IMG/VR virus record: IMGVR_UViG_3300021962_000059
From: a virus
DNA: 64,000 nt
Direction: 5' to 3' (one strand)
Under the pieces are notes generated by a model. The model searched no databases and was not told the DNA's origin. It worked only from the letters and a program-made list of their open reading frames with translations. The position numbers and the translations under genes were made by a program. Each line of letters starts with the position of its first letter. Position 1 is the first letter of the stretch. Positions 9,809 through 62,220 of this stretch are shown here, piece by piece.

Positions 9809-9809
9809 G

Positions 9810-19374: not shown

Positions 19375-19377
19375 GAA

Positions 19378-19920: not shown

Positions 19921-19938
19921 TTTTTTGTTTGGTTGAGG

Positions 19939-19968
19939 ATTACTAACTGATAACTGGTAACTGATTAC
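19939..19968 (-). repeat. Phased heptamer repeat leader
   Basis: Minus strand reads TCAGTTA CCAGTTA TCAGTTA GTAATCC ... ATG 19920. Confidence 0.85.
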
Positions 19969-49308: not shown

Positions 49309-50948
49309 TAGGGATTCTCCGTGTAATCTATCCGAAAACTGATATTAATTAGTCCTGTGATCGAACTAAAGCTAATTCTTAATCTTCCGCCCGCACTAAG
49401 AATATTATTAGCAGTGGCTAATTGATCAGCTAATACCGTAGTGGTACAATTCAAACTATTGAGTCCCGATATATTAGTCGTATCATTTTGAATAGAAATT
49501 ACGGCACTCCCACTACTCAGGGAGTTGATTAGTCCAGAAACTTTATTGATTGTTACTCCTACGGGAAAAGGAGGTAAAGTCAATGTTTTCGGAAAAGATG
49601 CTCCTTCAAGCCTTGGATCATTCGCAATAAGTGCAAAAATAGTAATCGGCCAAGAATCTTCGCTGCTTCCCCCGCCACCAGTTGGTAAATTCTTGATAGC
49701 AGAAGCATCTAATCGATCACCGCCAGTCAAGGTGGCGAGAGAATCTCTGATTTGAGAAGCTGATAAAACAGGTAAATTAGTTAGTTGACTTCCATCTACT
49801 GCGGGTAATTTAGCGGTATTGTCCAGTCGAATTAGATTGTTAGCTTCGACTCCAATGGGTATTTCAGTGATAGTTCCATTGCCATTGGTGGGCTTACCTA
49901 ATGCAATATTCCCGCTATTTGTCTGTTGTAGCTTGGAATAAGTGACAGATTGATTGTCGATAGTCCAAGTCGTACCAGAGTTAGAAACAGTAATATCACC
50001 CTTATCACCATCTGTAACCCCAGTTCCCCCACCCCCAGTAGGTAAATTAGTTAGTTGGCTCCCGTCTATTGCCGGTAGTTTAGCGGCACTATCTAACCTG
50101 ACAATACTATTGGCAGTCGTACCAGTTTCTACTGTCCAAGTTGTACCAGAGTTACTAACGGCTACATCACCTTTATCACCATCAGTAACACCAGTAATAT
50201 TAAGATCATTAAGCTGTTTTTGAAGTTTACCAAAACCCTGTAAAACGTTGTCAGTAGTGGTTATTGCGCCACCAGTAGTTGTTGACAGTCCAGTTAATAC
50301 AGTTGTTAAAACATTTGCGGACGGATTGATATTATTAATCTGATTTTGAATCTTACCTAACGAAATTAGCAGCGTATCAGTAGCAGTTATCGCACCTCCA
50401 GTAGATGTACTTAAAGCTGTCAATGGAGTTGATAAAACTTTTGAGAAGAACCCAAAAAACCCTTTAACTCCTGATTCTTTTCCATAGAAAGTATCGTTAT
50501 TAGGATTCCCTGCGATTTCATCAGCTTTGGCTACTATTCCCGCAGCACTTCCCCCGTATTCAGCAACAAGCATATCCCCCGCGCCTGTTACTGTCTGCCA
50601 GTTTGTACCATTAAAAAATAAATTATCACCAGAAACAAGGGAGACTTTTATCCCTAGAAAAGGTAGCCAAAATCCCCAATCGCCATTAGGCTGCCCATTT
50701 AGCCCAATCAAAGGAAAGGCTATTTGATTAGTCTTTCCTTCCCATGCTCCGGTGGCTCCCGTGGGAACAATATAATAGCTATCTGGTGTTAATCCAGAAG
50801 TTGGGGGAGTTGTCACGATTCGACTAATTACTGGCACGGAAGCCACCGATGTTAATCGAATCAGTTCGTTTACAAGCTGTTCTTTATACTCCTGAGATGG
50901 GTTAAGCATAAAGCCGTTATTGCCTAATATTTTCCCAGTCATCTCCAA
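49308..50948 (-). CDS. Tail fibre with a DUF2793-like N-terminus and internal repeats
   Basis: The N-terminal YYIVPTGATGAWEGKTNQIAF...WGFWLP is DUF2793-like. Repeat modules are GVTDGDKGD[IV].VSNSGTTWT and KLPA[IV]DGSQLTNLPTGGGG. Confidence 0.65.
   Translation of the reverse strand: MEMTGKILGNNGFMLNPSQEYKEQLVNELIRLTSVASVPVISRIVTTPPTSGLTPDSYYIVPTGATGAWEGKTNQIAFPLIGLNGQPNGDWGFWLPFLGIKVSLVSGDNLFFNGTNWQTVTGAGDMLVAEYGGSAAGIVAKADEIAGNPNNDTFYGKESGVKGFFGFFSKVLSTPLTALSTSTGGAITATDTLLISLGKIQNQINNINPSANVLTTVLTGLSTTTGGAITTTDNVLQGFGKLQKQLNDLNITGVTDGDKGDVAVSNSGTTWTVETGTTANSIVRLDSAAKLPAIDGSQLTNLPTGGGGTGVTDGDKGDITVSNSGTTWTIDNQSVTYSKLQQTNSGNIALGKPTNGNGTITEIPIGVEANNLIRLDNTAKLPAVDGSQLTNLPVLSASQIRDSLATLTGGDRLDASAIKNLPTGGGGSSEDSWPITIFALIANDPRLEGASFPKTLTLPPFPVGVTINKVSGLINSLSSGSAVISIQNDTTNISGLNSLNCTTTVLADQLATANNILSAGGRLRISFSSITGLINISFRIDYTENP
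49676..50195 (-). repeat. Intragenic repeats of the tail fibre gene
   Basis: DNA repeats at 49963-50025 and 50133-50195, and at 49775-49845 and 50043-50113, with a third partial copy near 49676. Confidence 0.75.
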
Positions 50949-52740
50949 ACTCCTCTATCATCTTGGCTTTTACCCAGTTATTATTTTCAATTTTACAAAG
51001 ACTTTTCAAGTAAGTTTCATAACGATTTAAGTCTTCTTTATTATAGTCTTTTTTGAAAATTGCGTGAAGTCTCCACGACTTAGGCGGCATCCAGTCCTTG
51101 CTTAATTTAGGATTTTTGAATGTTTTGATCATCCATCCCCGGACACTGTCAATATGCTCACCTTTTTTATAAGCTTCTTTGAGAGCGTATTTATAGGCTA
51201 GGTATAATTCTCTATCTCTATCGTGAATTATGATTTCTAATCTTTCGTTGGCTATTTGTTTCTTTTCTTTTGTTGGAAATTCGTAACCACAGTGAGGGCA
51301 AATACGAGCGGAAGCATAAGTGATTTTACCGCAATTTTCGCACTCTTTAATCGGAGCCTGTCCTTTTTGAGTATCGGAAGATGTAGAAAGCTTGGGATAG
51401 TCCACATCTTCGATAAATCCGTGTTCCGTCACGTTCCCCGCTTGATCTAATACCAAACAGTCAATTTTATCTAGCCAGCTACAGAGTCTTTGACCCCGAC
51501 CAGTCATTTGAATATAAAGAGTCCGGCTTTTAGTCGGTCTGGCATGGATAATACAAGAAATTGCAGGTAAGTTAAATCCGATCCCGCAAGTGTTAATATT
51601 TACAATTCCCCGCAATCTTAATTCAGCTACTTTTCTGAATATTTCTCTTCTTTCCTGTTCTGGTGTTTCAGCCGTGATAATAGCCGTGGGAACACCCCTT
51701 TTATTAAATTCTGTACAGAGGCTTTTTGCGTGTTCTACACCCGCAGCGAAGCAAACAAATTGTCTCCCTTGACCGAGCCTACGATACTCGGAAACCGTTG
51801 ATTTTACCGCTTCTAGGCAACGAATTTCTAGCTGACTAACATCAAAATCACCGCCATTGATTTTTACTCCTTTAGTATTGATTTTATTTTTAGTACCAAA
51901 ATAAACACAACCAACAAGCGCACCCTGTTCAATCATTTCTTTGGGAGTAGGACCAGTTACCTGAACCTCAAAAATATCTCCTAACTCCTCTCTTTTTGAC
52001 AAACGCCACGGAGTTGCTGTTAGACCAATTACGAGACGATTATCTACTGGTAGGGTTTTTCCCGAAAAAAGATGCTGTTGCTTACGAATCACTTCCCATG
52101 CTGAGTTTATCTCTTGTAAAGTTTCCTTTGATTCAGCGTGAATTAGGCTAAGATGTTTGTATTTTTCCTTAGCTTCATCAAAAGTGATTTTGTAGGGTTC
52201 TAAGTCTTCTCTTTCTACGGCAATCCCTAATACTGCTAATTCATCACGAATATCTTTAATTGAGGTTGTTTGTTTACCATTTTTAAGATTTGGGAAGTTA
52301 TCTTTAAACCACTGACAATAAGCTGATAAATGCACTTCATCAGCTAGTATTACTTCGGGATTGAACCAACTCAAGTCGCGCCCTCTAGACAAGGTTTGCG
52401 TTGTTGCAATTTGAACTAACTGACTTCTATCTTCTTTATAACCACCAGCAATTACTCCGGCAGTTAATCCAAATTTTGCTAATGTTTCTAGAGTCTGTTC
52501 TATGAGTACCGTAAAGGGTACTACAATTAAAGTCCGTCGCTGTCTTTTTACTGCGGCATCATAGATTATTTGACAGAAAAATACTGTTTTTCCCCATCCG
52601 CAAGGGGCAACTACTAAGGCTCTTTTATGGATTTTTAGAGCATCATACAGTTCTCTTTTAAGAGCTTTTTGGTCGTCTCTTAATTGAATTTGTGGTTTAG
52701 TCGGTACGAAAAGTGTTTGTGTTTGTAGTGTTAGTGTCAT
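50917..52740 (-). CDS. SF2 DEAD/DEAH-box helicase with a C-terminal zinc ribbon
   Basis: Walker A APCGWGKT, DEVH box, TATPWR, QMTGRGQR, and CENCG...CPHCG. Confidence 0.8.
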   Translation of the reverse strand: MTLTLQTQTLFVPTKPQIQLRDDQKALKRELYDALKIHKRALVVAPCGWGKTVFFCQIIYDAAVKRQRRTLIVVPFTVLIEQTLETLAKFGLTAGVIAGGYKEDRSQLVQIATTQTLSRGRDLSWFNPEVILADEVHLSAYCQWFKDNFPNLKNGKQTTSIKDIRDELAVLGIAVEREDLEPYKITFDEAKEKYKHLSLIHAESKETLQEINSAWEVIRKQQHLFSGKTLPVDNRLVIGLTATPWRLSKREELGDIFEVQVTGPTPKEMIEQGALVGCVYFGTKNKINTKGVKINGGDFDVSQLEIRCLEAVKSTVSEYRRLGQGRQFVCFAAGVEHAKSLCTEFNKRGVPTAIITAETPEQERREIFRKVAELRLRGIVNINTCGIGFNLPAISCIIHARPTKSRTLYIQMTGRGQRLCSWLDKIDCLVLDQAGNVTEHGFIEDVDYPKLSTSSDTQKGQAPIKECENCGKITYASARICPHCGYEFPTKEKKQIANERLEIIIHDRDRELYLAYKYALKEAYKKGEHIDSVRGWMIKTFKNPKLSKDWMPPKSWRLHAIFKKDYNKEDLNRYETYLKSLCKIENNNWVKAKMIEEFGDDWENIRQ

Positions 52741-52754
52741 GTTTTTATTTGAGA

Positions 52755-53213
52755 TTATATTTTGGTTTCAATGAAATCTATAGTCACTCGCAATTGACTA
52801 TCTTTTTTAGCTTTCCTAGACGAGTCTATTTTGGGCTGCATCTCATTTTCAATAAAATCTGAGATAGGTTTCATTATTTTTTTTGCTTCTGCGAGTAAAG
52901 TATCTAAGTTTTTACCGTCTCCTTGTATTTTTTTTCTGTTTGATTTTATCTCAACCCAACTAAAGCAAGGAATCCGATCAGGTTCTAAAGCGAAACATTC
53001 TACTGTAACTATTAATTTTTTAGAATATTTATTTTGAAACTCAATCCACATCTTGCATTCATATTGCCCTAGACATTGACAAAACATACGCAGTGTTCCT
53101 TGTAGATAGGAGAATCCGTCTTCTGTTTTTATTTGCCATTCCGAGCAATTAGACTGACTAAAAGTTTCTTTACAGAAAACTTCAATTTGTTTTAATGCTT
53201 CTGTTTTGTTCAT
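52755..53213 (-). CDS. Tandem paralogue family, divergent member P1 (152 aa)
   Basis: N-helix ALKQIEVFCKETF and C-helix AKKIMKPISDFIENEMQ. Confidence 0.55.
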   Translation of the reverse strand: MNKTEALKQIEVFCKETFSQSNCSEWQIKTEDGFSYLQGTLRMFCQCLGQYECKMWIEFQNKYSKKLIVTVECFALEPDRIPCFSWVEIKSNRKKIQGDGKNLDTLLAEAKKIMKPISDFIENEMQPKIDSSRKAKKDSQLRVTIDFIETKI

Positions 53214-53217
53214 TGTT

Positions 53218-53700
53218 TTAACAGGTAATCGTTTTGATGAAATTTGATATAGCCTCTACTATTTCGTCTGTTTTATCACAGATAAAATCAATCTCATTTT
53301 GTTTATCAGGGTTCTCAACGTCACTGTAAAGTGATTCATGGTAACTAAACCCTATATATTTATATATTTCTTTTATTTGCCCTGTTCTTAAGTCAAATAT
53401 TCTACTTTTCACTTTGACTGCTGGTAAATCATCAGAATCTCGGTAATGACACATGACTTTAATATGGGCTATTGTTTGCTTGTCTAAAAGAACCTTAGCA
53501 TTACCTATTAAGTGAATTTGTTCATCAAATTTTAATTGCCATTCCGACCAAAGAAGGCTTTTAAACGCCCAACTGTTCCAGTCGGAATTGTTGTTATATT
53601 CTTTGTAACAAAAAGCCGCAATCTTTTGTAGTATTCTTGCTTTTCTCGAGCGCTCCATAGCTTCTAGTTTTTTAAAAAACTCTTCTGCTGTTATTGTCAT
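53218..53700 (-). CDS. Tandem paralogue family, divergent member P2 (160 aa)
   Basis: ILQKIAAFCYKEY...WSEWQLKF...IVEAISNFIKTI. Confidence 0.5.
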   Translation of the reverse strand: MTITAEEFFKKLEAMERSRKARILQKIAAFCYKEYNNNSDWNSWAFKSLLWSEWQLKFDEQIHLIGNAKVLLDKQTIAHIKVMCHYRDSDDLPAVKVKSRIFDLRTGQIKEIYKYIGFSYHESLYSDVENPDKQNEIDFICDKTDEIVEAISNFIKTITC

Positions 53701-54074
53701 AGTGTCACCTCGGTTTGTATTTCATTTTTGATAAACTGAAAAATATCAATCATAATCTGTGTTCCTTTTTTACGCCATAGATTTAATTCTTCATGTTTAG
53801 CGGTTCCACTTTTCTTGAATGAGATTTTACTGTTTTTTCTGTCATTTATCCATACAAGAAAACTTCCTTCCCAATCTAAATTAGAAATAGTAGATCGACC
53901 TTCTATATAATTTCTAAAATCATTAGTAAACTTTATATCTATCCATATAGACTTAGGGCGATACCCGTAAATCATGTCTTGAGTTCTGCTTAAAGACGTA
54001 AATGACCACTTTAGCTCTGGGTAAGTTTTTTGGCAGAAATTGAATATTTTTGTGGTTACTTCTGTTATATTCAT
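53697..54074 (-). CDS. Tandem paralogue family, subfamily A member P3 (125 aa)
   Basis: MNITEVTTKIFNFCQKTYPELKW...DWEGSFLVWIN...IMIDIFQFIKNEIQTEVTL. ATGA overlaps on both sides. Confidence 0.65.
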   Translation of the reverse strand: MNITEVTTKIFNFCQKTYPELKWSFTSLSRTQDMIYGYRPKSIWIDIKFTNDFRNYIEGRSTISNLDWEGSFLVWINDRKNSKISFKKSGTAKHEELNLWRKKGTQIMIDIFQFIKNEIQTEVTL

Positions 54075-54451
54075 AGTGTCACCTGAGATTGTATTTCAAT
54101 TTCGATAAAGTCAAAAATGCTTGACAGTATTTCTTTGGCTTTTACAAATAAATCTGTTGACGTATCAAATTCTTTTTTTGATTTAAAAGAAAATTGAGTT
54201 CCTGTTCTGTCTAACCAAATCTTGAAAGAACCAGTCCATATTTCTGTACTAGAAATAAATGCACTTATATCTCCTAATACAACGTGACTTTCTAATCGCG
54301 TCCCGATAATCTCTATGCCTATATCAATTCCAGTTGTTTCACCCCAAATACGGGAAGTTAAATCTGTGTAATTTATCTGTTCCCAATTTATTTCTGAGTA
54401 ACGGTCTTTGCAAAAATTGAATATTTTTTGAGTTGTTTCTGTTATATTCAT
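54071..54451 (-). CDS. Tandem paralogue family, subfamily A member P4 (126 aa)
   Basis: MNITETTQKIFNFCKDRYSEINW...WTGSFKIWLD...ILSSIFDFIEIEIQSQVTL. Confidence 0.65.
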   Translation of the reverse strand: MNITETTQKIFNFCKDRYSEINWEQINYTDLTSRIWGETTGIDIGIEIIGTRLESHVVLGDISAFISSTEIWTGSFKIWLDRTGTQFSFKSKKEFDTSTDLFVKAKEILSSIFDFIEIEIQSQVTL

Positions 54452-54867
54452 AGTGTCACCTCGGATTGTATTTCATGTTCAATAAATGAAAGAATGTCAA
54501 TCATAATCTGTGTCCCTTTTTCACACCATAAGTTTAGTTCTTCATGCTGACATATTCCATCTCCTTTAAACAAAATTTCATTATTTTTTTCTTGGTTTAC
54601 CCATGCCGTAAAAACTCCTTCCCATGCTAAACGATCTATAGTGCAATAACCTTTTATTAAGCCAACTTGCAAATTACTCGGATCGTGACTAATAATGTCT
54701 ATGTATATTTTTATAGTAAGTATTCCTAGTCTAGTAAAAAAAGCTTTACATCCATAAATACACGGTTCCCCATTTCGTCCAGTCCAACTATCATCATCCC
54801 ATCTTAAATCGGGATGATTTTTCTGACAAAAATCTAATATTTTTGTGGTTACTTCTGTTATGTTCAT
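54448..54867 (-). CDS. Tandem paralogue family, subfamily A member P5 (139 aa)
   Basis: MNITEVTTKILDFCQKNHPDLRW...AWEGVFTAWVN...IMIDILSFIEHEIQSEVTL. Confidence 0.65.
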   Translation of the reverse strand: MNITEVTTKILDFCQKNHPDLRWDDDSWTGRNGEPCIYGCKAFFTRLGILTIKIYIDIISHDPSNLQVGLIKGYCTIDRLAWEGVFTAWVNQEKNNEILFKGDGICQHEELNLWCEKGTQIMIDILSFIEHEIQSEVTL

Positions 54868-55289
54868 AGTGTCACCTCGGTTTGTATTTCATTTTTGATA
54901 AACTCAAAAATATCAATCATAATCTGTGTCCCTTTTTCACACCATAGATTTAACTCTTCGTGTTTAGCGGTTCCACTTTTCTTGAATGAGATTTGACTGT
55001 TTTTTCTGTCATTTATCCATACAAGAAAACTTCCTTCCCAATCTAAATTAGAAATAGTAGATCGACCTTCTATATAATTTCTAAAATCGCTAGGTGAACC
55101 GTCACTGCTATAAGAGTTGTTACTATTGACCCTTATATCTATTTGTATTCCATTTATAGAATTAAGAATAGGGCGATACCCGTAAATCATGTCTTGAGTT
55201 CTGTCTAAAGACGTAAATGACCACTTTAGCTCTGGGTAAGTTTTTTGGCAGAAACCTAATATTTTTTGGGCTGTTTCTTGTTTGTTCAT
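54864..55289 (-). CDS. Tandem paralogue family, subfamily A member P6 (141 aa from MNKQETAQ; the track start at 55310 is an alternative)
   Basis: The C-terminal ~60 aa are nearly identical to P3. The central segment is replaced by ILNSINGIQIDIRVNSNNSYSSDGSPSD. Confidence 0.6.
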   Translation of the reverse strand: MNKQETAQKILGFCQKTYPELKWSFTSLDRTQDMIYGYRPILNSINGIQIDIRVNSNNSYSSDGSPSDFRNYIEGRSTISNLDWEGSFLVWINDRKNSQISFKKSGTAKHEELNLWCEKGTQIMIDIFEFIKNEIQTEVTL

Positions 55290-55293
55290 AATT

Positions 55294-55773
55294 TTAACTT
55301 TTAACCTCAACTATTTTGCAAAACCTTAAAATAGTCTCCATTATCTTTATTGCCTCTGGAACCAAAATATTGAACTCTTCTTTGTTTCCGCTTGGATAAA
55401 GATTATATCTTGAGTTGCAGTCTGGTGTTTCGTTATAACCGTATATCCAACTTAAGGCAACCAAAGACCCGCCTAACGTACCTTCTATTGTGATTTTTTC
55501 AAGGCATTTGTCTACTAATTGATATTCAGTCGAAATTTCTCGACATTCAATCAAAACTTCATACTTTTTACATTTTATTAACTTACCATAAGTTTTGTAA
55601 AGATAATCCTCTTTAATTATCAAAGTTCCTATTAAACGAATACATTTATCGTCTGCAACTGTATCCCATTCTGAGATGTCCACTGTATCGTATTCGGAGA
55701 TGGTCATCTGCTCAAAAGTTTTTTTAAAGAAATCTCTGATTTCTTTAAGTGACTTTTCTTTTAATACTTCCAT
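55294..55773 (-). CDS. Tandem paralogue family, divergent member P7 (159 aa)
   Basis: LKEIRDFFKKTFEQ...VPEAIKIMETILRFCKIVEV. Confidence 0.5.
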   Translation of the reverse strand: MEVLKEKSLKEIRDFFKKTFEQMTISEYDTVDISEWDTVADDKCIRLIGTLIIKEDYLYKTYGKLIKCKKYEVLIECREISTEYQLVDKCLEKITIEGTLGGSLVALSWIYGYNETPDCNSRYNLYPSGNKEEFNILVPEAIKIMETILRFCKIVEVKS

Positions 55774-55783
55774 TGTTTTTACC

Positions 55784-56116
55784 TCAAATACAAATAACTA
55801 GATCACCGACACAAACATTGATAAATTTCTCACAATCGTATCGAGAATTATTACAAGCTTGAATAATAGAAGTATTTTCCTCAATAGAAATAACCATCCC
55901 TGATCCCTTATAAAGGATACGATGACCAATAAAGTCTCTAGTTATTGGGTCGTATATTGGGTTGTTTGTAATTGAATAAACCAGATGAGAGTCATTTATT
56001 CTCATACGATTTAATTCGCCACGGTTTATTACTACTTTAAAATCATCGATAACTTCAATTACCTTAGCTGGATACGTTCCTTTAGTCGGAAGTCCTAGCT
56101 CCTCGTCTGTTGTCAT
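55784..56116 (-). CDS. Unrelated 110 aa beta-rich protein embedded in the array
   Basis: Intact ORF. Its ATG lies 4 nt after the stop of the truncated paralogue. Confidence 0.45.
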   Translation of the reverse strand: MTTDEELGLPTKGTYPAKVIEVIDDFKVVINRGELNRMRINDSHLVYSITNNPIYDPITRDFIGHRILYKGSGMVISIEENTSIIQACNNSRYDCEKFINVCVGDLVICI

Positions 56117-56120
56117 TGTT

Positions 56121-56243
56121 TTAAGTGCCTGTAGCCTCAGTTGTTTTAATAAAGCCTAAAATAGTCTCCATTATCTTTGTCGCTTCTGGAATTAAGATAT
56201 TTAAGATTTCGTTGTCCCCCTCACTTTTTGGCTCTTTTTTAAT
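56121..56243 (-). pseudogene. Truncated paralogue (only the C-terminal helix of a P7-like gene)
   Basis: 56154-56228 aligns at roughly 75 percent by eye with the 3' end of P7. It reads (ATT)KKEPKSEGDNEILNILIPEATKIMETILGFIKTTEATGT* immediately after an AGGAG SD. Confidence 0.6.
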
Positions 56244-56267
56244 CTGTTACTCCTATTGGGTGAAATT

Positions 56268-56290
56268 ACTAGACAGATATTTTGTCTAGT
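56268..56290 (-). promoter_or_regulatory. Inter-gene hairpin ACTAGACA-N7-TGTCTAGT preceding the leader AATTTCACCCAATAGGAG
   Basis: 8 bp stem. A paralogous hairpin and leader occur at 57554-57576. Confidence 0.5.
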
Positions 56291-56297
56291 AGTGTTT

Positions 56298-56660
56298 TCA
56301 TTCTTGAATCTCATCAAGAATGAAAGTGAAGATGTCTAGCATTACTTTTCGGGTTTCTCTGTATTTGTTGTCAAAATAATCGCATTTTGACTTTCTAATA
56401 TAATCAAAGAATATTTTATTTTCATAAGAACGGTTATTGTCTCTATCGTCAGGGTTTATCCATAATTCAAATGTGCCTACATAATACGCTTCACATAAAA
56501 CACGCTTAAGCAAGCCATCCAGAAAAACCTCTATTATTAATTCATCAGGAAAAAGTGGACACTGAATTATATTATTTTCAGGGTCAAGATTCCATCTTAA
56601 ATTTGGATAACTTCTGTGACAGAATTCCAATATTTTCTCTGTTATTTGTTTTATGTCCAT
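56298..56660 (-). CDS. Tandem paralogue family, subfamily B member P8 (120 aa)
   Basis: MDIKQITEKILEFCHRSYPNLRW...GTFELWINP...VMLDIFTFILDEIQE. Confidence 0.65.
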   Translation of the reverse strand: MDIKQITEKILEFCHRSYPNLRWNLDPENNIIQCPLFPDELIIEVFLDGLLKRVLCEAYYVGTFELWINPDDRDNNRSYENKIFFDYIRKSKCDYFDNKYRETRKVMLDIFTFILDEIQE

Positions 56661-56675
56661 TGGTGTTGCTCCTAT

Positions 56676-57086
56676 TTATTCTTGAATTTCGTTAGCAATA
56701 AAATTGAAAATACCTAGCATCACTTCTCGATATTTTTTGTACAAGTCCCAGTCTTTTTTATCCCACTCTTTTGTTATTGGGAGACTACGAAAATCTATTT
56801 TTTTGTCACAATTTAGATGAATACCAAACATCCCCAACCAACCTACATTAACTAGGTCAAAGTGTCCGATTATATAATCATCGGTAGTTTCTTCTTTATA
56901 AGAAGAAACATCATTTCTTTTGTCTGAGCAAATTTTTAGAGTTACTTTAAACAGAGAATCTACTCCACAAATTACAGTTTTATTTGTACATTCACTATTT
57001 AATTTATCTACATTCCACTCTAAATCTGGGTATTGATTTAAGCAATAACCTGATATTTTGTAAGCTATTAGTTGTATCTCCATCAC
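56676..57086 (-). CDS. Tandem paralogue family, subfamily B member P9 (136 aa)
   Basis: ...IAYKISGYCLNQYPDLEW...GWLGMFGIHLN...VMLGIFNFIANEIQE. Confidence 0.65.
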   Translation of the reverse strand: MMEIQLIAYKISGYCLNQYPDLEWNVDKLNSECTNKTVICGVDSLFKVTLKICSDKRNDVSSYKEETTDDYIIGHFDLVNVGWLGMFGIHLNCDKKIDFRSLPITKEWDKKDWDLYKKYREVMLGIFNFIANEIQE

Positions 57087-57098
57087 TGTTACTCCTGT

Positions 57099-57527
57099 CT
57101 ATTCTTGAATTTCATCTTCAATAAAATTAAAGATTTCTCTCACCATTTTTCTGGCTTTTTTTACTAAAAGCCAGCTATCATCATTCCAATCGTCATGAGT
57201 AGCAAGCATAAGCTCTAATTCGCTGTCTTTGTTATGGTTTAACTTAACCTCAAAACTACCCGACCAGAAAAGTAGAGATTTTTCTTCTGATTGAGGTATT
57301 AGAAGCGACCCCAATATATAATCGTAAGTAGCTTCTTTTTCGTAAAACTCTTGTTTTTCATCTGAGCAAATTTCTAGCTCTAATTTAAATAAAGAGCAAG
57401 AGCCAAGAATAAGTGCGACAACGTTATAGTTATTTTTATGGCTGTCAAAATAGTTACAGTTCCAGCCTAAATCTGAATAACTTTGGCAGAAATTAAATAA
57501 TTTTTCTGTCACTTGTTTTGTATCCAT
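57099..57527 (-). CDS. Tandem paralogue family, subfamily B member P10 (142 aa)
   Basis: MDTKQVTEKLFNFCQSYSDLGW...WSGSFEVKLN...MVREIFNFIEDEIQE. Confidence 0.65.
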   Translation of the reverse strand: MDTKQVTEKLFNFCQSYSDLGWNCNYFDSHKNNYNVVALILGSCSLFKLELEICSDEKQEFYEKEATYDYILGSLLIPQSEEKSLLFWSGSFEVKLNHNKDSELELMLATHDDWNDDSWLLVKKARKMVREIFNFIEDEIQE

Positions 57528-57553
57528 TGATTTTACTCCTATTAGGTGAACTT

Positions 57554-57576
57554 ACTAGACAGATATTCTGTCTAGT
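57554..57576 (-). promoter_or_regulatory. Inter-gene hairpin ACTAGACAGA-TAT-TCTGTCTAGT preceding the leader AAGTTCACCTAATAGGAG
   Basis: 10 bp stem between P11 and P10. Confidence 0.5.
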
Positions 57577-57583
57577 ATTGTTT

Positions 57584-57982
57584 TTACTCTTGAATCTCAT
57601 TAAGGATGAAATTGAAAATGTCTAGCATTACTTTTCGGCATTGACTAGCTAATTTCCAATGTTCTGCACTCCATAGTTCATGTTTATAATAGGCAAGATT
57701 CTCAAAAACTATATAGTCTTCATACCGATAGCTCATGTCTTCGATGGGAGGATTTATCCAAATTTTAAACTTTCCTATTTGGTTATCTTGCCACTCAACA
57801 CACTTGAGTTGTCCGTCTAATCCCGACCAAATACCGTATTTAATCTTTATGCTGTCATCAGAAAAAGTTAAGCATTGAATGATTTTATAGTCATTATCTG
57901 TAAAATCAAAATTCCAGTCTAAATCTGGGTATTTTTCTTCACAGAAATTTAGTATCTTTTCTGCTATTTGTTGTGTGTCCAT
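57584..57982 (-). CDS. Tandem paralogue family, subfamily B member P11 (132 aa)
   Basis: MDTQQIAEKILNFCEEKYPDLDW...IGKFKIWINP...VMLDIFNFILNEIQE. Confidence 0.65.
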   Translation of the reverse strand: MDTQQIAEKILNFCEEKYPDLDWNFDFTDNDYKIIQCLTFSDDSIKIKYGIWSGLDGQLKCVEWQDNQIGKFKIWINPPIEDMSYRYEDYIVFENLAYYKHELWSAEHWKLASQCRKVMLDIFNFILNEIQE

Positions 57983-58007
57983 TCGTTAGTCCTGTTGGGT
58001 GAAATTA

Positions 58008-58160
58008 CTAGGAAATACCTACTGTTTCTTCTACTACGATACTGTGATGACCGTTGCGACTTAGAGCTTCTAAATAAGAAGCTAATCGACTCGCGTGCAT
58101 AGATGTTTTAATCTTGCAAGGCTTGTTTTTTCCATCTATTGTTCTAATTGTGTATCGCAT
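58008..58160 (-). CDS. Small protein (50 aa, below cutoff)
   Basis: MRYTIRTIDGKNKPCKIKTSMHASRLASYLEALSRNGHHSIVVEETVGIS. A 3 nt gap separates it from the upstream ORF. Confidence 0.35.
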   Translation of the reverse strand: MRYTIRTIDGKNKPCKIKTSMHASRLASYLEALSRNGHHSIVVEETVGIS

Positions 58161-58163
58161 CTG

Positions 58164-58322
58164 CTATCTCCAATTTTTTGAATTTTGCCTGCAATAATCT
58201 AAATGCGCCTTAAGTCTTTTGGCAGACTTTTGTTCATCTGTTCCTCTAATAAGTCCTTTGTTCTTATCAATGTCATCCTGACTTGATAATTTAGCCCATG
58301 CTTTCTTTTTTTCTTCTGTCAT
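58164..58322 (-). CDS. Small basic protein (52 aa, below cutoff)
   Basis: MTEEKKKAWAKLSSQDDIDKNKGLIRGTDEQKSAKRLKAHLDYCRQNSKNWR. Tightly packed between its neighbours. Confidence 0.35.
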   Translation of the reverse strand: MTEEKKKAWAKLSSQDDIDKNKGLIRGTDEQKSAKRLKAHLDYCRQNSKNWR

Positions 58323-58324
58323 AA

Positions 58325-58513
58325 TTACACCTTTACTGTTTCAAGTCCACGCTGTTCTAAGATTTTATTATACTCTTTGATTTTCGAGTATAAAACCTCT
58401 CGTTTTTGTTGTGCGGTTTCCCCAGATTCTTGCTTAGAACTTCGATATTGTCCCGCGTAAAAATTAGCGTAATAACTAATTTTAGCAGTGTCTATATTTG
58501 CAACAAGCTTCAT
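58325..58513 (-). CDS. Hypothetical protein (62 aa)
   Basis: Intact ORF with a heptamer-type leader and a TAAGGAG SD. Confidence 0.45.
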   Translation of the reverse strand: MKLVANIDTAKISYYANFYAGQYRSSKQESGETAQQKREVLYSKIKEYNKILEQRGLETVKV

Positions 58514-58542
58514 AATTTTCTCCTTAATTCATTGTTGTTTTT

Positions 58543-58562
58543 AACTAATAACTGATAACTAA
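58543..58562 (-). repeat. Heptamer repeat leader
   Basis: Minus strand reads TAGTTAT CAGTTAT TAGTTAA AAACAAC AATGAAT TAAGGAG. Confidence 0.75.
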
Positions 58563-58593
58563 ATCCAATTAATTTTTCCACCTTGCCCGAACA

Positions 58594-58836
58594 TCATATG
58601 TATAAAGCATACATATAAATTGGGTCAGGATTATCTGGTGGTTCATACATTTGATCGTAGGCAGCCTCAATGTCAGAATCTTCAATGTCACCATTAATTA
58701 AATGGTCAATCAAAATAGCAGCCATGTTTTCAGCTTCTTCTTTGGTTAATTGAAGGCCTAAGTCACTCCAATGATCAGTTGCATACTCAAGAATGTATTT
58801 AACTAATTCATCGACTTTATCTTGCAATTTACTCAC
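58594..58836 (-). CDS. Acidic hypothetical protein (80 aa, GTG start)
   Basis: An AGGAGG SD lies 5 nt before GTG 58836. It is downstream of a consensus promoter. Confidence 0.5.
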   Translation of the reverse strand: MSKLQDKVDELVKYILEYATDHWSDLGLQLTKEEAENMAAILIDHLINGDIEDSDIEAAYDQMYEPPDNPDPIYMYALYI

Positions 58837-58862
58837 GATTTCCTCCTTGATTCATTACTTAA

Positions 58863-58891
58863 ATCTTACATTATTCTACTAGAATTGTCAA
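58863..58891 (-). promoter_or_regulatory. Consensus promoter cTTGACAATTC-N-TAAGAT
   Basis: -35 TTGACA (58891-58886), 17 bp spacer, -10 TAAGAT (58868-58863). Confidence 0.6.
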
Positions 58892-59091
58892 GAAATTTCT
58901 TGAAAATCTTCTTTTCTAAAACAGTAAAATTGTTCTCCTTTTGTGAGGTGATCGATTGATTCAAAATGGTAGTAGATTCCTATGGCAGTCTTAATAATTC
59001 CCAGTGGTTTGCACTGAGGAAAAATACGACCATAGGAATTGACACGATAAACTTTTTCAGGGTATCGAGAGGGAATATATTGTCCAATCAT
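58888..59091 (-). CDS. Hypothetical protein (67 aa from MIGQYIPS...)
   Basis: Start moved to ATG 59091. The first 10 codons of the track ORF are the translated T-arm of the tRNA-like element. Confidence 0.45.
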   Translation of the reverse strand: MIGQYIPSRYPEKVYRVNSYGRIFPQCKPLGIIKTAIGIYYHFESIDHLTKGEQFYCFRKEDFQEIS

Positions 59092-59092
59092 A

Positions 59093-59294
59093 GGTACTAG
59101 AGACGGGAATTGAACCCGCAAAACTTAATTAAATCTACTCCTGACGAAACGCCCTTCCCTTACTCAATCTTTGCCAAGTTCGGTGGATTCGCAAATTTCA
59201 GTTTTGAAACAAAAAATAAAGGTATTTTTTGTATTAAGTCCCTTTTCGGTTGAAGGCTCCGTTTCACAGCCTTTAGCTACCAAGCTACTCTAGC
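59093..59294 (-). ncRNA. tRNA-like RNA with a ~130 nt internal insert
   Basis: 5' GCTAGAG-TA-(AGCT-TGGT-AGCT). 3' GCGGG-TTCAATT-CCCGT followed by CTCTAGT-A-CC. The 7 bp acceptor pairing begins with G1.U72, and U8 and A9 are present. The predicted TSS of the upstream promoter falls on the first acceptor base. Confidence 0.5.
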
Positions 59295-59300
59295 ACTTCA

Positions 59301-59329
59301 ATCCTATCAGAGGCTTCTGAAATTGTCAA
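59301..59329 (-). promoter_or_regulatory. Promoter TTGACA-N17-TAGGAT driving the tRNA-like RNA
   Basis: -35 at 59329-59324, 17 bp spacer, -10 at 59306-59301. Predicted +1 is about 59294. The -35 begins 6 nt after the primase stop. Confidence 0.6.
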
Positions 59330-59334
59330 TCCTA

Positions 59335-62220
59335 TCAGGTACTTATATCCTGTAGATAACAGTTAGAAAATGGAATTGTAAAAGCGATCACAGACCCATT
59401 TAAGATAGTTTCTACCCTCAAAAGCCATTGATTGTCAAAAGTCACTTCGATAACTTTTCCGACTGCTCTTGGTGGGATAGTTCGCTCTCCTATCTCTATA
59501 GATGCACCCGTTCGCACTAATACCCTTTCTTTTTCAAGATCAGGAAGACTATCAATGTGTACACCATCAGCCGAGAACTCATCGACTGGCTCCGATTCAA
59601 CTTCTACTATCTCAGGGTTAGAGATCGGTTCATTTTTTGGAGTAGGAGTGGGAATCTGGACAATTTCCTCTTTTATTTCTGATTGATATTCCAGAGATTC
59701 GGGTTCTTCTATCTCAAAAGCTTCTAATTCTTTTGGCTCTTGATAGCGCAGTATCATGCCCCTTGATTTGACCTCTAATCGTCCATAGCCAGCTTGTTCT
59801 AACTGAGTAAGTAGGGTGCGGGCAATAGAGGTGTTTACTTTTTCCCCGTTAATTTTACGCCCGCCGAATTTTTGGGCAACTTCCCGGGGTTTAATCTGTC
59901 CTGCGCTTTTGACAATCTCCCATATCTCGGATAAGATTCCCTGTACCGGATTCTCATCCTGAGAAGTAACCCCTTGAATTGTCAAGAATTGACTGATATA
60001 GAAGTCAGTCATCTTAGCAGCTTTTTTAGCTGTTTGTACTGGTATTTTATAGAGGTCGGTATTATCTGGATCAAATATCCAGTTCAATAGATGGATTGCC
60101 AGAGTAAGCCTTAAGAAAGTCTTCATCTGTTTCCCTATATAAGAAGCAAATGATGGATTAATCGCCCGATACTTTTTGATAAGCATCTCGTAATGATACT
60201 TAATACCGAAGGCATAATCCTCTCCAGTTTCGGTAAACCAACAATTATAAGGATCGACGATTCCATCTTCATCAGCTTCTAGATTAATCCCGCTGATTTG
60301 ATTGATAATATTTTGGATGCACTCTTGAATCGAGTTAGGGTCTTCTGGCGGTCTCCCACGTTGAGGATCGAGGGGTTCATGCAATAGGAAAAGAAACCGA
60401 GAAACCAATCCATCTACATCATTAGATAGGTCTAAGTATTTTTGTACTTTCTGTATCTGTATCCCACCTAATATATTGATAGTTTGCCCATTCAGGAAAT
60501 AGCGATTTTCCTCTTTTACCCTATCAAAAGTATTTTGTACTGGATCATTCCAAGATGATAATAATCGTTGCCGGTCATTACCTTTACCGCCCGACCGGTA
60601 TTGATTTAAGCCTTCAAATAATCCCGTTAACTCATCCGCTACCCACACCCCACCTTGCCAACGAGGTTGAGTGGACATCGTTTTCAGGACACCATCGAAA
60701 GTTCCTTCGTCATAAAACCAGCGACGGGATTGACAGTTTTCTTTTTCGTAAAGACTAGGATTTACTTCAGCGTTTTCTTTGTGTATGCTACGCTCTTCGC
60801 GGGTCATTTCTGCCCATTCTGCTTTTAATTCTTTTAGCCTAGCTTGCTTTTTAGAGAGCCTTTCTAACTCATCTAAGTCCTTTCTTTTTAATACCTTGTA
60901 AATTTCTTTTTGAGTAGTAGTTTTCCCACTACTTACACCACCAGCATCAGCACAATAAAAAATCGGGTATTCTTTCCAGCACTCCCTTTCCCTTGCAGTA
61001 GTTCGGAGGTTAACTGCAAATCGACTACCTAAGATAGCCCCTAATATTGGCCATAGGGAGTGTAGCAATCGGATTGGGGGCTGGTTAAGTGTTCTGGCGC
61101 GGGATATGATTGCCTCAGCTAAAGGTTGGGGTAATATTTGAAAAAGATCAATCTCTTTTTTCTGATAATGCTTACCCCTTAAAAAACCCTCTAATCCTGT
61201 TTTAATAGCGTCCCCTTCCGCTATTTCTGTTTTACGAATTTCGATTAAATGCCGTATTTCTGTTGGCTTTTTACCAGTGGCTTTTGCCCATAAATCGACT
61301 TTTTCTTGCCATTGGGTTCTAGTGATTTCCTCTTGTCCAATACAGCCGTCAATGGCTGTTATTAAGTCTTGGAAAGTCATAGTTTCTGTTACTGTGACTT
61401 CCTTCTCTTTTTTCTCCTTTACTTCTTTTGGTTTGTCAACTATCGAGGCTAATAGTTCTTTAAGATCAATTTTCTTTTCCTCAATCCAGTTGATGATATC
61501 TACCCCCTGAGAATCTGGCAAGTGATTCCATATAAGAGAGTCTGGATAGGCATAAAGCCATTTTGCTTCTGGGAAATCTTGATAAATTTTCTGGCAGTGA
61601 GCTACTCCCCCTTTGTCACGGTCCGGGCATAAAACTAATTTTGCTCCCTTTAAAGCTTCTGTGTGAGACGGTTGCCATTTCTTTGATCCGCCTATATTGC
61701 AAGTGGCAACTAATCCAAAAGATTCAAGCTTTTCTACTTTAGTCTCACCCTCGACTATATAAATCGGAGTTCCTTCCTTGATAGCCTTTTCTAGGCGATC
61801 TGCGTGGTAAAGAGGTATATTTTTGTACTCAATATCACCTATGCCCCACTTCCAGTTTTTACCATTATCTGTAGAGTGCTGTTGTTTTATATCCTTTTTC
61901 CAAATACCATCTTCTTTGTAATCCTTCCGGTACACACGGACTCTCACCCCATTGGCAAGAGGGGGATAAAGGAAGTATTGGGTTTTTTCTTCTTTATAGG
62001 CAGAAAATTTGACTTCTTTTTTAAGATAGTAGAGCGGTGTACCCTCACTATCTACTTTGCTCGATTTTTCCCATCCTGGTGCGGGGTCATAGTTTCGTTT
62101 GCAGACTGAGATGGTATTGCCGTCATCGGCTACATACATATAGCACCAATCGGGCTTGCCACAGTGGGGGCAAGGATTGTTTTTGTCGATCTTGACACGG
62201 TTAGAGTTTTGTGTTACCAT
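59335..62220 (-). CDS. Primase-helicase (zinc finger, TOPRIM, DUF3987-like P-loop domain)
   Basis: CPHCGKPDWC, TOPRIM motifs IVEGETKVEKL and CPDRDKGG, and the P-loop DAGGVSSGKTT. 961 aa. Confidence 0.8.
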   Translation of the reverse strand: MVTQNSNRVKIDKNNPCPHCGKPDWCYMYVADDGNTISVCKRNYDPAPGWEKSSKVDSEGTPLYYLKKEVKFSAYKEEKTQYFLYPPLANGVRVRVYRKDYKEDGIWKKDIKQQHSTDNGKNWKWGIGDIEYKNIPLYHADRLEKAIKEGTPIYIVEGETKVEKLESFGLVATCNIGGSKKWQPSHTEALKGAKLVLCPDRDKGGVAHCQKIYQDFPEAKWLYAYPDSLIWNHLPDSQGVDIINWIEEKKIDLKELLASIVDKPKEVKEKKEKEVTVTETMTFQDLITAIDGCIGQEEITRTQWQEKVDLWAKATGKKPTEIRHLIEIRKTEIAEGDAIKTGLEGFLRGKHYQKKEIDLFQILPQPLAEAIISRARTLNQPPIRLLHSLWPILGAILGSRFAVNLRTTARERECWKEYPIFYCADAGGVSSGKTTTQKEIYKVLKRKDLDELERLSKKQARLKELKAEWAEMTREERSIHKENAEVNPSLYEKENCQSRRWFYDEGTFDGVLKTMSTQPRWQGGVWVADELTGLFEGLNQYRSGGKGNDRQRLLSSWNDPVQNTFDRVKEENRYFLNGQTINILGGIQIQKVQKYLDLSNDVDGLVSRFLFLLHEPLDPQRGRPPEDPNSIQECIQNIINQISGINLEADEDGIVDPYNCWFTETGEDYAFGIKYHYEMLIKKYRAINPSFASYIGKQMKTFLRLTLAIHLLNWIFDPDNTDLYKIPVQTAKKAAKMTDFYISQFLTIQGVTSQDENPVQGILSEIWEIVKSAGQIKPREVAQKFGGRKINGEKVNTSIARTLLTQLEQAGYGRLEVKSRGMILRYQEPKELEAFEIEEPESLEYQSEIKEEIVQIPTPTPKNEPISNPEIVEVESEPVDEFSADGVHIDSLPDLEKERVLVRTGASIEIGERTIPPRAVGKVIEVTFDNQWLLRVETILNGSVIAFTIPFSNCYLQDIST
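62192..62220 (+). promoter_or_regulatory. Possible plus-strand promoter TTGACA-N17-TACCAT inside the primase 5' end
   Basis: -35 at 62192-62197. The -10 at 62215-62220 is the complement of the primase start codon region. Confidence 0.35.

What the first reader, a model, noticed from the sequence alone, without database searches (positions are those of the whole stretch)
52755..57982. 5.2 kb tandem array of 11 intact plus 1 truncated diversified small paralogues between the helicase and the primase
Eleven consecutive minus-strand ORFs of 120-160 aa share a conserved N-terminal helix (consensus roughly M-[ND]-I/T-x-[EQ]-[VI]-T/A-x-K-I-[LF]-x-F-C-x-x-x-Y-P-[ED]-L-x-W). They also share a conserved C-terminal helix ([VI]M[IL]DIFxFIxNEIQ). 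A W-x-G-[ST]-F-x-[VI]-W-[IL]-N strand sits in between. The central 40-70 residues differ almost completely in sequence and length.

Three subgroups are visible:
- Subfamily A (53697-55289) has four genes joined by ATGA stop-start overlaps and ends in EIQxEVTL.
- Subfamily B (56298-57982) has four genes separated by AGGAG spacers and ends in NEIQE.
- Three members are divergent (52755, 53218, 55294).

The 3' halves of P3 and P6 are nearly identical while their middles differ. That points to recent duplication or gene conversion with replacement of the central cassette. A truncated copy (56121-56243) and an unrelated inserted gene (55784-56116) show the array is still being remodelled.

I recognise no known domain. 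Conserved framework helices with a hypervariable middle, tandem amplification and an early/replication-module location suggest a binder family under diversifying selection. Candidates are anti-defence decoys or inhibitors, or host-takeover factors, amplified like a genomic accordion. This is the best candidate in the window for an undescribed system.
Basis: partly seen in the sequence, partly recalled or inferred. Interest (0 to 1): 0.85.

Follow-up and report, generated by a model that had tools for sequence, protein, structure and literature searches.

The report
Variable orphan gene-family array in Microcystis phages
A cyanobacterial virus carries eleven tandem genes of one undescribed small-protein family that resembles no known protein or fold, varies from 2 to 11 copies among sister viruses and moves between unrelated Microcystis viruses, so it is probably a host-interaction toolkit, though its function is untested.

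Summary
Eleven tightly packed minus-strand genes (52755-57982) belong to one family, plus a truncated copy. Eight are unambiguous; P1 is clearly related; P2 and P7 are only remotely related.

The family is an orphan. It has no Pfam, PHROG, NCBIfam or PADLOC hit and only 28 clusters among 1.84 billion representative proteins. It was found only on phage or phage-like contigs. An AlphaFold model (pLDDT 81) shows an N-terminal helix, six beta strands and a long C-terminal helix, with no PDB match.

In sister ~90 kb phages the primase-to-helicase array holds 2-9 copies; this window's 11 is the largest seen. About 16 old types exist, usually one per genome in a semi-conserved order, and truncated members are common.

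The cassette, including upstream small genes and a conserved sigma70-like promoter, also sits at two different sites in Fukuivirus myoviruses that infect Microcystis, at 82-92% nucleotide identity.

This is birth-and-death turnover of old types, not a recent accordion. Gene X is a conserved array component, not a random insertion. dN/dS is 0.3-0.55, with strongly constrained helices and near-neutral patches in the middle, and no significant positive selection.

Anti-defence or host-takeover binding is the best guess and is untested.

The parts
58863..58891 (-). Sigma70-like promoter (TTGACA, 17 nt, TAAGAT) followed by a GGAGG ribosome-binding site, at the head of the cassette
   Evidence: Found by the scan. 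It is almost identical in sister phages L003, L007 and L011, and in the Fukuivirus-like contig L068. Promoter activity is inferred.
58008..58836 (-). Four small upstream genes (80, 62, 52 and 50 aa; 58594-58836, 58325-58513, 58164-58322, 58008-58160). Part of this stretch travels with the array.
   Evidence: ORFs. Orthologues lie in the same position in sister phages. Window 58288-58894 (the 80- and 62-aa genes and the promoter) is 81-83% identical to L013 and L068. No Pfam or PHROG function.
57584..57982 (-). P11, 132 aa, core member (type also found in 38 loci)
   Evidence: AlphaFold model with pLDDT 80.8 and pTM 0.77: helix 3-17, six strands, helix 106-129.
57553..57577 (.). 25-nt palindrome TACTAGACAG-ATATT-CTGTCTAGTA in the P11-P10 spacer
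   Evidence: 0 expected by chance. Folds as an RNA hairpin with z -3.1. Role unknown.
57099..57527 (-). P10, 142 aa, core member
56676..57083 (-). P9, 135 aa, core member of a rare type (3 loci; split by frameshift in L062 and L071)
56298..56660 (-). P8, 120 aa, core member of the commonest type (44 loci). 88% amino-acid identity (91% nucleotide) to MaMV-DH01 gene 159.
56267..56291 (.). Second copy of the palindrome, within a 106-nt repeat (56247-56352 vs 57533-57638, 91% identical)
56121..56243 (-). Truncated pseudogene holding only the C-terminal helix of a P7-type member, with no start codon
   Evidence: (repeat D8, 76% to 55302-55385).
55784..56116 (-). Gene X, 110 aa. Unrelated orphan, but a conserved component of the array, always directly upstream of the P7 type.
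   Evidence: Present in most related arrays at 81-95% identity. Omega 0.17-0.19 pairwise and 0.31 by tree counts. Only 19 protein clusters known. No family or PDB sequence hit.
55294..55773 (-). P7, 159 aa, remote member (type in 41 loci, including MaMV-DH01 gene 157)
   Evidence: Independent profile E 0.064, ranked 11th of 284 ORFs. hhalign 30%. Model pLDDT 62 with the same helix, six strands, helix order. The Foldseek link to the family is inconclusive.
54864..55289 (-). P6, 141 aa, core member. Recent recombinant duplicate of P3.
   Evidence: C-terminal pS 0.09 against P3.
54448..54867 (-). P5, 139 aa, core member
54071..54451 (-). P4, 126 aa, core member
53697..54074 (-). P3, 125 aa, core member. 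Its 3' end GAGGTGACACTATGA encodes ...EVTL and also holds the ribosome-binding site and overlapping ATG of the next gene.
   Evidence: (repeat D5).
53218..53700 (-). P2, 160 aa, remote member with an N-terminal extension. Carries KIAAFCYKEY...W and ISNFI motifs.
   Evidence: E 0.06, ranked 10th of 284; type in 22 loci.
52755..53213 (-). P1, 152 aa, divergent member with a C-terminal tail
   Evidence: E 8e-5; 88.6%; type in 37 loci.
50917..52740 (-). Downstream flank: SF2 helicase with a zinc ribbon, 14 nt after P1
   Evidence: Omega 0.05-0.07.
59335..62220 (-). Upstream flank: DUF3987 protein with a weak Toprim match, taken as a primase-helicase (961 aa)
   Evidence: Omega 0.09-0.14.

Best explanation
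The locus is an accessory, horizontally mobile gene cassette of Microcystis phages. It probably has its own host-type promoter, four tiny genes, an array of paralogues from one phage-restricted orphan family, and a conserved partner gene X.

Each family protein is a small two-helix plus beta-sheet scaffold. The N- and C-terminal helices and one central strand (WxGxF..W.N) are held constant by purifying selection. The rest of the sheet and its loops differ between about 16 old types.

The array evolves by birth and death. Types are gained, lost, truncated and occasionally recombined or duplicated, helped by the shared gene ends. Closely related phages therefore carry different subsets of 2-11 types.

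The most likely role is inferred, not shown. The proteins would be expressed early and each would bind a different host (or rival) protein, such as components of the many Microcystis defence or toxin systems. A larger repertoire would then widen the range of strains the phage can exploit.
For: Shown:
- The family is real and an orphan.
- The fold model has no PDB relative. In BFVD it matches only family members at TM 0.63-0.83.
- The family was found only on phage or phage-like contigs. In 185,579 species-representative genomes there are just four contigs in two MAGs. One is the 86.5 kb contig also fetched as locus L011 and another carries this phage's primase region.
- Copy number is 2-11 in backbones whose helicases are 88-95% identical.
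- There are 16 types, mostly one per genome in a semi-conserved order.
- Truncated and frameshifted members are frequent.
- Omega is 0.34-0.55 for family types against 0.05-0.14 for the flanking replication genes. The helices are strongly constrained (10-codon omega 0.04-0.4) and blocks in the middle are near neutral.
- Between subfamilies, synonymous sites in the helices are close to saturation (pS 0.5-0.9). The conservation is therefore at protein level and not from gene conversion.
- Family dS (0.13-0.47 in most pairs) is lower than flank dS (0.5-0.77), pointing to more recent exchange.
- The cassette occurs at 82-92% nucleotide identity at two different sites in Fukuivirus myoviruses. One site is next to the primase in MaMV-DH01. 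The other is near the tail genes in L013, which is 97% identical to MaMV-DC there. Ma-LMM01 and MaMV-DC lack it.
- The TTGACA-17-TAAGAT element is conserved, also in another backbone.
- Tight packing and ATGA overlaps indicate one operon.

Inferred: early expression, binding function, and a target in host defence.
Against: There is no functional evidence of any kind. No similarity was found to any PADLOC model. No anti-defence protein library was available to search.

Positive selection, expected for arms-race binders, was not detected at any site. Power was low, with 11-30 sequences per type and a parsimony method.

Charge is not uniform (pI 4.5-9.4), so a common DNA-mimic mechanism is unlikely.

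The conserved residues look like core positions, so no shared active or docking site is evident.

The host of the ~91 kb phage is inferred only from DNA shared with cultured Microcystis phages and from one MAG label.
Confidence: 0.4

Rival explanations
1. Inter-phage competition or immunity. The proteins would neutralise effectors of co-infecting phages or other mobile elements, or exclude them. The repertoire would then track rival phages and not host defences.
For: The cassette is exchanged among unrelated phages that share one host. Tandem arrays of diverged small paralogues recall polyimmunity loci (my own knowledge of polymorphic-toxin immunity arrays). Members are dispensable.
Against: No toxin or effector gene lies next to the array. 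No Pfam match at or near threshold to any family, SMI1/KNR4 and the Imm families included, and no significant PDB fold match at all. No homologues were found in the cellular genomes scanned.
Confidence: 0.15
2. Replication or transcription accessory factors. These would be small adaptors that modulate the neighbouring primase-helicase or SF2 helicase, or couple them to variants of host replication or transcription proteins.
For: The array lies between the primase-helicase and the helicase on the same strand, 14 nt from the helicase start. In MaMV-DH01 it is again next to a DNA primase.
Against: In the Fukuivirus contig L013 the cassette sits near tail genes, not replication genes. Copy number of 2-11 and frequent pseudogenes do not fit essential replisome parts. 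Ma-LMM01 and MaMV-DC do without it.
Confidence: 0.1
3. Virion-packaged, ejected proteins, analogous to the polymorphic internal-protein locus of T-even phages. A conserved terminus would serve as a packaging signal and the variable body would act on the host at injection.
For: Conserved termini with variable bodies, and polymorphism between related phages, resemble the T-even IP locus (my own knowledge). The helicase downstream is followed directly by tail-module genes.
Against: Both conserved termini are long helices, and the periodicity of their conserved residues suggests they are part of the folded core and not a detachable leader (inferred). The cassette has a sigma70-like promoter and sits among early or replication-type genes. 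No similarity to T4 internal proteins was tested or seen.
Confidence: 0.07
4. Functionless or selfish duplicated DNA in a recombination hotspot, drifting toward loss.
For: Truncated and frameshifted copies are common. Omega is higher than in neighbouring genes. Copy number is highly variable.
Against: Every type has omega well below 1, with 8-21 codons under significant purifying selection and strongly constrained helices. The types have persisted as orthologues across many genomes and across phage families.
Confidence: 0.05

Closest known systems
Virus multigene families in variable genome regions (e.g. ASFV MGF360/505; the comparison rests on my own knowledge)
   Same: Tandem arrays of anciently diverged paralogues of one small-protein family. 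Presence or absence and copy number differ between close isolates. Individual members are dispensable. A presumed host-range or immune-evasion role.
   Different: This is a bacteriophage, not a eukaryotic virus. The fold and sequence are unrelated. The cassette is also horizontally mobile between unrelated phage families. No phenotype is known.
Poxvirus K3L 'genomic accordion'
   Same: Tandem copy-number variation of a putative host-interaction gene.
   Different: Accordions are recent, near-identical amplifications of one gene under acute selection. Here there are about 16 old types at 20-45% identity, usually one copy each. Only the P3/P6 pair is recent.
Polymorphic internal-protein (IP) locus of T-even phages (my own knowledge)
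   Same: A variable set of small proteins sharing a conserved terminus. The set is polymorphic among relatives. At least one T4 member counters a host restriction system.
   Different: The IP leader is a short cleaved capsid-targeting peptide and the locus is expressed late. Here both termini are long helices, apparently part of the fold, and the setting is early or replication-like. No homology.
Phage anti-defence (anti-CRISPR-type) islands
   Same: Small orphan proteins clustered together. Highly variable content between related phages. Exchanged horizontally. Accompanied by a conserved marker gene (here X).
   Different: Anti-defence islands normally mix unrelated families. Here nearly all genes belong to one family. 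X gave no family match, helix-turn-helix families included. No inhibition has been shown.
Polyimmunity arrays (SUKH/SMI1-KNR4 and Imm families) of polymorphic toxin systems
   Same: Tandem arrays of diverged small alpha+beta proteins with a conserved framework.
   Different: No sequence or fold match, no adjacent toxin, and not found in cellular genomes.

Membership tests
Any curated protein family (Pfam, PHROGs, NCBIfam, PADLOC) | Profile match at or above the curated threshold | tested here: not met
   Best hits have E 0.0075-0.3 and lie far below the cutoffs. PcfK (PF14058) is hit weakly by 15 of 106 members (best E 0.015). In the one member inspected (P0053, E 0.048) the match covers only the C-terminal helix, 14 bits against a cutoff of 27.
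Any solved fold (PDB) | Significant structural or sequence match | tested here: not met
   Foldseek with the pLDDT 81 model: best E 1.1, TM no higher than 0.37. Profile against PDB sequences: best E 0.51.
Genomic accordion (recent tandem amplification) | Copies nearly identical to each other, arising within a lineage | tested here: not met
   Paralogues are 20-49% identical except P3/P6 at 75%. Each type has 62-93% identical orthologues in other genomes.
Genomic accordion (recent tandem amplification) | Copy number varies among close relatives | tested here: met
   2-11 copies between a primase and a helicase that stay 81-95% identical.
Family under diversifying (positive) selection | dN/dS above 1 at sites or regions among orthologues | tested here: inconclusive
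   Gene-wide omega is 0.34-0.55. No site has a significant non-synonymous excess. A few 10-codon blocks reach 1-2.5. The counting method is simple, uses 11-30 sequences per type and does not correct for recombination.
SUKH / Imm polyimmunity proteins | SMI1_KNR4 or Imm profile or fold match, and linkage to a toxin gene | tested here: not met
   No such Pfam hit among 106 members at E up to 5. No PDB fold hit. The neighbours are replication and small orphan genes.
Anti-CRISPR / anti-defence proteins | Demonstrated inhibition of a defence system, or homology to a known inhibitor | not testable with these tools
   No anti-defence protein library or assay was available. PADLOC models defence systems, not inhibitors, and gave nothing.
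Diversity-generating retroelement targets | Template/variable repeat pair and a reverse transcriptase nearby | tested here: inconclusive
   Within 52700-58100 the repeats are all gene-to-gene paralogy or spacer elements, with no template/variable pair. No reverse transcriptase among the 16 window proteins scanned outside the array. The window was not scanned exhaustively.
This orphan family itself (membership of P1, P2, P7) | Detected by a profile that excludes them, plus the same architecture | tested here: inconclusive
   P1 is met (E 2.8e-4; hhalign 88.6%). P2 and P7 have E 0.06 and hhalign about 30%, yet rank directly after the other members. The P7 model has the same order of secondary-structure elements but pLDDT 62, and TM 0.3 to a family member.

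The most novel reading that the evidence does not exclude
The family is a phage-specific, modular binder scaffold: two invariant helices clamp a replaceable beta-sheet face. Its 16 or more types would each neutralise a different Microcystis defence, toxin-antitoxin or host-takeover target. The array content would then act as a swappable 'host-range barcode' traded among unrelated Microcystis phages. That would be a new class of anti-defence protein and a new way for phages to organise counter-defence.
Probability: 0.25. Interest if true: 0.85.

Novelty: new variant of a known kind. Interest (0 to 1): 0.62.

Why it matters
By my own knowledge, Microcystis carries one of the largest defence arsenals of any bacterium, and its blooms are partly controlled by phages. 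How those phages cope with that arsenal is essentially unknown.

This cassette is a concrete and easily testable candidate:
- It is a single orphan family with an apparently new fold.
- It has many old specificity types.
- Its content differs between otherwise near-identical phages.
- It is traded between a ~91 kb phage lineage with a phiJL001-type baseplate hub and cultured Fukuivirus myoviruses.

MaMV-DH01 and its relatives are culturable and carry three members, while Ma-LMM01 and MaMV-DC carry none. Natural plus and minus comparisons are therefore possible.

Even if the function turns out to be different, the locus is a clean example of birth-and-death evolution of a multigene family in a bacteriophage. 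I believe such examples are rarely documented.

Tried and rejected
- Pfam, PHROGs, NCBIfam and PADLOC scans of the members gave nothing usable. The PHROGs and PADLOC scans left out P9, NCBIfam left out P6 and P9, and PADLOC also left out P6; P9 was covered separately by Pfam and PHROGs.
- A Pfam scan of 106 family members, to pool weak signals, gave only PcfK on the C-terminal helix, below threshold. I rejected it.
- The profile against PDB sequences had a best E of 0.51 (BH2032). Rejected.
- Foldseek against PDB gave scattered weak hits (START/SRPBCC, p32, ssRNA-phage coat, UEV), all with TM below 0.4. Rejected as chance.
- Two eukaryotic proteins in the representative search (P0134, a repeat protein with ...KKKYPDVDWSF... 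units, and P0143, a kinase repeat) match only the N-helix motif through repetition. Treated as spurious.
- A DNA-mimic idea was rejected because pI ranges from 4.5 to 9.4.
- Gene conversion as the cause of helix conservation was rejected. Synonymous sites there are nearly saturated between subfamilies.
- The genome-contig scan failed with the full alignment and was repeated with a subfamily B alignment. Its patterns therefore cover only that subfamily.
- Gene X has too few and too similar homologues for a useful structure prediction, so none was run.
- Literature searches found no description of the family. The MaMV-DH01 paper has no text match for the gene labels tried or for 'paralog', 'tandem' or 'unique'.

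Full report

Yes. Between 52755 and 57982 the minus strand carries eleven back-to-back ORFs of 120-160 aa. Their alignment shows three shared elements:
- an N-terminal motif, M-x-I-x-x-x-x-x-K-I-x-x-F-C-x-x-x-Y-P-x-L-x-W;
- a central strand, W-x-G-x-F-x-x-W-x-N;
- a C-terminal motif, K-[VI]-M-x-x-I-F-x-F-I-x-x-E-I-Q.

A profile built from the eight obvious members (P3-P6, P8-P11) finds each of them at E 1e-37 to 1e-50 among the 284 ORFs of the window. It finds P1 at 8e-5.

A deeper profile that excludes the P1, P2 and P7 types (A4) ranks those three directly after the eight, at E 2.8e-4, 0.06 and 0.064. Profile-profile comparison gives 88.6% for P1 but only about 30% for P2 and P7. P1 is therefore a member. 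P2 and P7 are probable remote members. P2 carries both end motifs. A P7 model built only from its own orthologues has the same order of helix, six strands and helix, but pLDDT is 62 and the Foldseek link to the family is weak.

The finer details also hold:
- The ATGA overlaps in P6 to P2 follow from the coordinates.
- Ribosome-binding spacers were read for three of the four genes in P11 to P8: AGGAG before P8 and P10, AGGAC before P11.
- The P3/P6 pair is a mosaic: 95% identity over the 3' 242 nt, 86% at the 5' end, and a replaced middle. The first 30 nt of P3 match P5 instead.
- The fragment at 56121-56243 is the C-terminal helix of a P7-type gene.
- The conserved ...EVTL tail of P3-P6 is encoded by GAGGTGACACTATGA. 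That sequence is also the ribosome-binding site and overlapping start of the next gene. This tail may therefore be constrained at the RNA level.

**2. What is the setting?**

The window is part of a tailed phage. It encodes a large terminase with a LAGLIDADG insertion, both ribonucleotide reductase subunits, a thymidylate synthase-like protein, a DNA methylase, a phiJL001-type baseplate hub and a DUF2793 fibre.

Proteins identical to P1 and P7 occur on a 91,124-nt metagenome contig. No cultured phage has a close helicase; the listed matches are 28% identical or less.

Three separate stretches of the window are 83-93% identical in DNA to cultured Microcystis myoviruses of the genus Fukuivirus. 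That makes Microcystis the likely host. This is an inference.

The array lies between a DUF3987 protein with a weak Toprim match (taken as the primase-helicase) and an SF2 helicase. It is tightly packed with both.

**3. What is the family?**

It is an orphan. No member reaches a threshold in Pfam, PHROGs, NCBIfam or PADLOC. A profile search of 1.84 billion representative proteins returns 28 clusters, several of them fragments or spurious repeat proteins. The word-indexed search of 5.8 billion proteins returns 219, all unnamed.

A scan of one genome per 185,579 prokaryotic species finds four contigs in two MAGs. One is the 86.5 kb contig also fetched as locus L011, and another carries this phage's primase region. 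That scan used patterns from one subfamily only.

The AlphaFold model of P11 has pLDDT 80.8 and pTM 0.77. It shows helix 3-17, six strands between residues 23 and 93, and a long helix 106-129. Foldseek finds nothing in the PDB (best E 1.1, TM no higher than 0.37). In BFVD it finds only three family members from one viral record, at TM 0.63-0.83 and down to 23% identity. The fold is therefore consistent within the family and has no detectable relative.

The conserved residues lie with helical periodicity on the two helices and on one central strand. They look like a structural core. The 'hypervariable middle' is the rest of the sheet and its loops.

**4. How does the array evolve?**

I recovered about 80 related loci. 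Among sister phages whose helicase is 88-95% identical to this one, complete primase-to-helicase arrays hold 2 to 9 members. The window's 11 is the largest.

Clustering 309 members gives 16 types at 55% identity or more. Genomes usually hold one copy per type, in a semi-conserved order. The window holds ten types, with P3 and P6 sharing one. Orthologues of a type are 62-93% identical between genomes, whereas different types are 20-49% identical.

Truncated or frameshifted members are common. Examples are a 94-aa stub in nine loci and a split P9 type.

This is birth-and-death turnover of old paralogues with occasional recombination. It is not a recent accordion.

Gene X (55784-56116) is not a random insertion. 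It is present in most arrays, always just upstream of the P7 type. It is 81-95% identical, with omega 0.17-0.19 pairwise and 0.31 by tree counts. It is itself an orphan.

**5. Selection.**

Pairwise dN/dS for family orthologues is 0.19-0.81. The helicase gives 0.05-0.07 and the primase-helicase 0.09-0.14.

By region, omega is 0.35 in the N-helix, 0.46 in the middle and 0.25 in the C-helix.

Parsimony-based counts on 11-30 distinct sequences per type give omega 0.34-0.55 and 8-21 codons under significant purifying selection. No codon has a significant non-synonymous excess. Some 10-codon blocks in the middle reach 1-2.5, while the helices mostly sit at 0.04-0.4.

Between subfamilies, synonymous sites in the helices are nearly saturated (pS 0.5-0.9). 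The helices are therefore conserved by protein-level selection. Local conversion is seen only for P3/P6 and P8/P11.

The proteins are functional and constrained, with relaxed or near-neutral patches. Diversifying selection is not demonstrated, and these simple methods cannot exclude it.

**6. Mobility.**

Family genes have lower dS than their flanks: 0.13-0.47 in most pairs against 0.5-0.77.

The same genes occur at 82-92% nucleotide identity in Fukuivirus genomes. In each of those backbones similarity stops at the cassette, apart from one weak 335-nt match in L078. In L013 and L068 the shared DNA also covers the upstream genes at window 58288-58894.

In MaMV-DH01 and its four relatives, three members lie next to the DNA primase. 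In contig L013 two members plus X lie near the tail genes. L013 is 97% identical to MaMV-DC over its tail region. Ma-LMM01 and MaMV-DC have none.

A TTGACA-17-TAAGAT element with a strong ribosome-binding site heads the cassette. It is nearly identical in sister phages and in another backbone. This suggests a self-contained unit read by host RNA polymerase. That is an inference.

**7. Most likely function.**

The cassette is accessory, mobile and phage-restricted, and probably expressed early. It encodes many specificity variants on one scaffold, and its repertoire differs between near-identical phages.

The best-fitting explanation is a set of binders against variable host proteins. Defence or toxin systems are the obvious candidates in Microcystis. 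I put this at about 0.4.

The rivals are inter-phage competition or immunity (0.15), replication accessory factors (0.1), ejected virion proteins (0.07) and functionless DNA (0.05). None is excluded by direct evidence.

**8. Comparison with known systems, and novelty.**

In behaviour the locus is closest to viral multigene families such as those of ASFV. It shares features with phage anti-defence islands and with the T-even internal-protein locus. It fails the defining test of a genomic accordion, because the copies are not near-identical. It matches no immunity or anti-defence family that could be tested.

The protein family and its fold appear to be undescribed, and literature searches found no mention. 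I rate it a new variant of a known kind of locus, with interest 0.62. It is a strong, experimentally tractable lead, but its function is unknown.

Noticed in passing
window 59038-59347: A roughly 308-nt, apparently non-coding stretch just downstream of the primase-helicase gene (it overlaps the gene's last 13 nt). It is 92.6% identical to Ma-LMM01 and 92.3% to MaMV-DC, where it lies beside tRNA-Tyr. It contains a tRNA-like T-arm (GCGGGTTCAATTCCCGTC), but neither ARAGORN nor Rfam calls a tRNA. It could be a tRNA remnant or a shared regulatory or integration element.
   Followed up: partly
window 56267-56291 and 57553-57577: A 25-nt palindrome, TACTAGACAG-ATATT-CTGTCTAGTA, in two spacers of the array. 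It is part of a 106-nt repeat at 91% identity, and a half copy lies upstream of P11 (57985-58011). It forms a stable RNA hairpin (z -3.1 and -2.5). It lacks a U-tract on the coding strand, so it is not an obvious terminator for these genes.
   Followed up: partly
window 16013-18889: The large terminase (958 aa) carries LAGLIDADG_3 and Hom_end domains at residues 327-407, upstream of the Terminase_6N match. It looks like an intein or homing-endonuclease insertion.
   Followed up: no
window 18889-20031: A third DNA segment shared with Fukuivirus phages, 78-84% identical. It covers genes annotated there as XRE-family or HTH antitoxin-like. This is further evidence of gene exchange between the two phage lineages.
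   Followed up: no
L001 (MaMV-DH01) 9290-10200, minus strand in locus coordinates: Just upstream of the three family genes, MaMV-DH01 has a different tandem series of small ORFs of about 53-75 aa (MKTINHNDW.LHNKL...FYYRL...). The annotation suggests the series continues over many small genes in Fukuivirus genomes.
   Followed up: no
window 49308-50948: The DUF2793 tail-fibre-like protein is 546 aa here, with internal repeats (GVTDGDKGD.xVSNSGTTWT...). Most sister phages have 221 aa and L009 has 308 aa. The receptor-binding module therefore also varies between these genomes.
   Followed up: no
P0134 (499-aa protein from the representative search): A protein with a signal-peptide-like N-terminus (source organism not given) carries seven or more repeats of ...SEIAKG[FL]DYLKKKYPDVDWSF... 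These resemble the family's N-terminal helix motif (KI..FC..KYPDLDW). It is probably convergent or chance, amplified by the repetition.
   Followed up: no
window 58863-58891; L003 5780, L007 7153, L011 8776, L068 149: A near-identical TTGACA-17-TAAGAT promoter-like element with its ribosome-binding site heads the small-gene and array cassette in several genomes, including a different phage backbone.
   Followed up: partly
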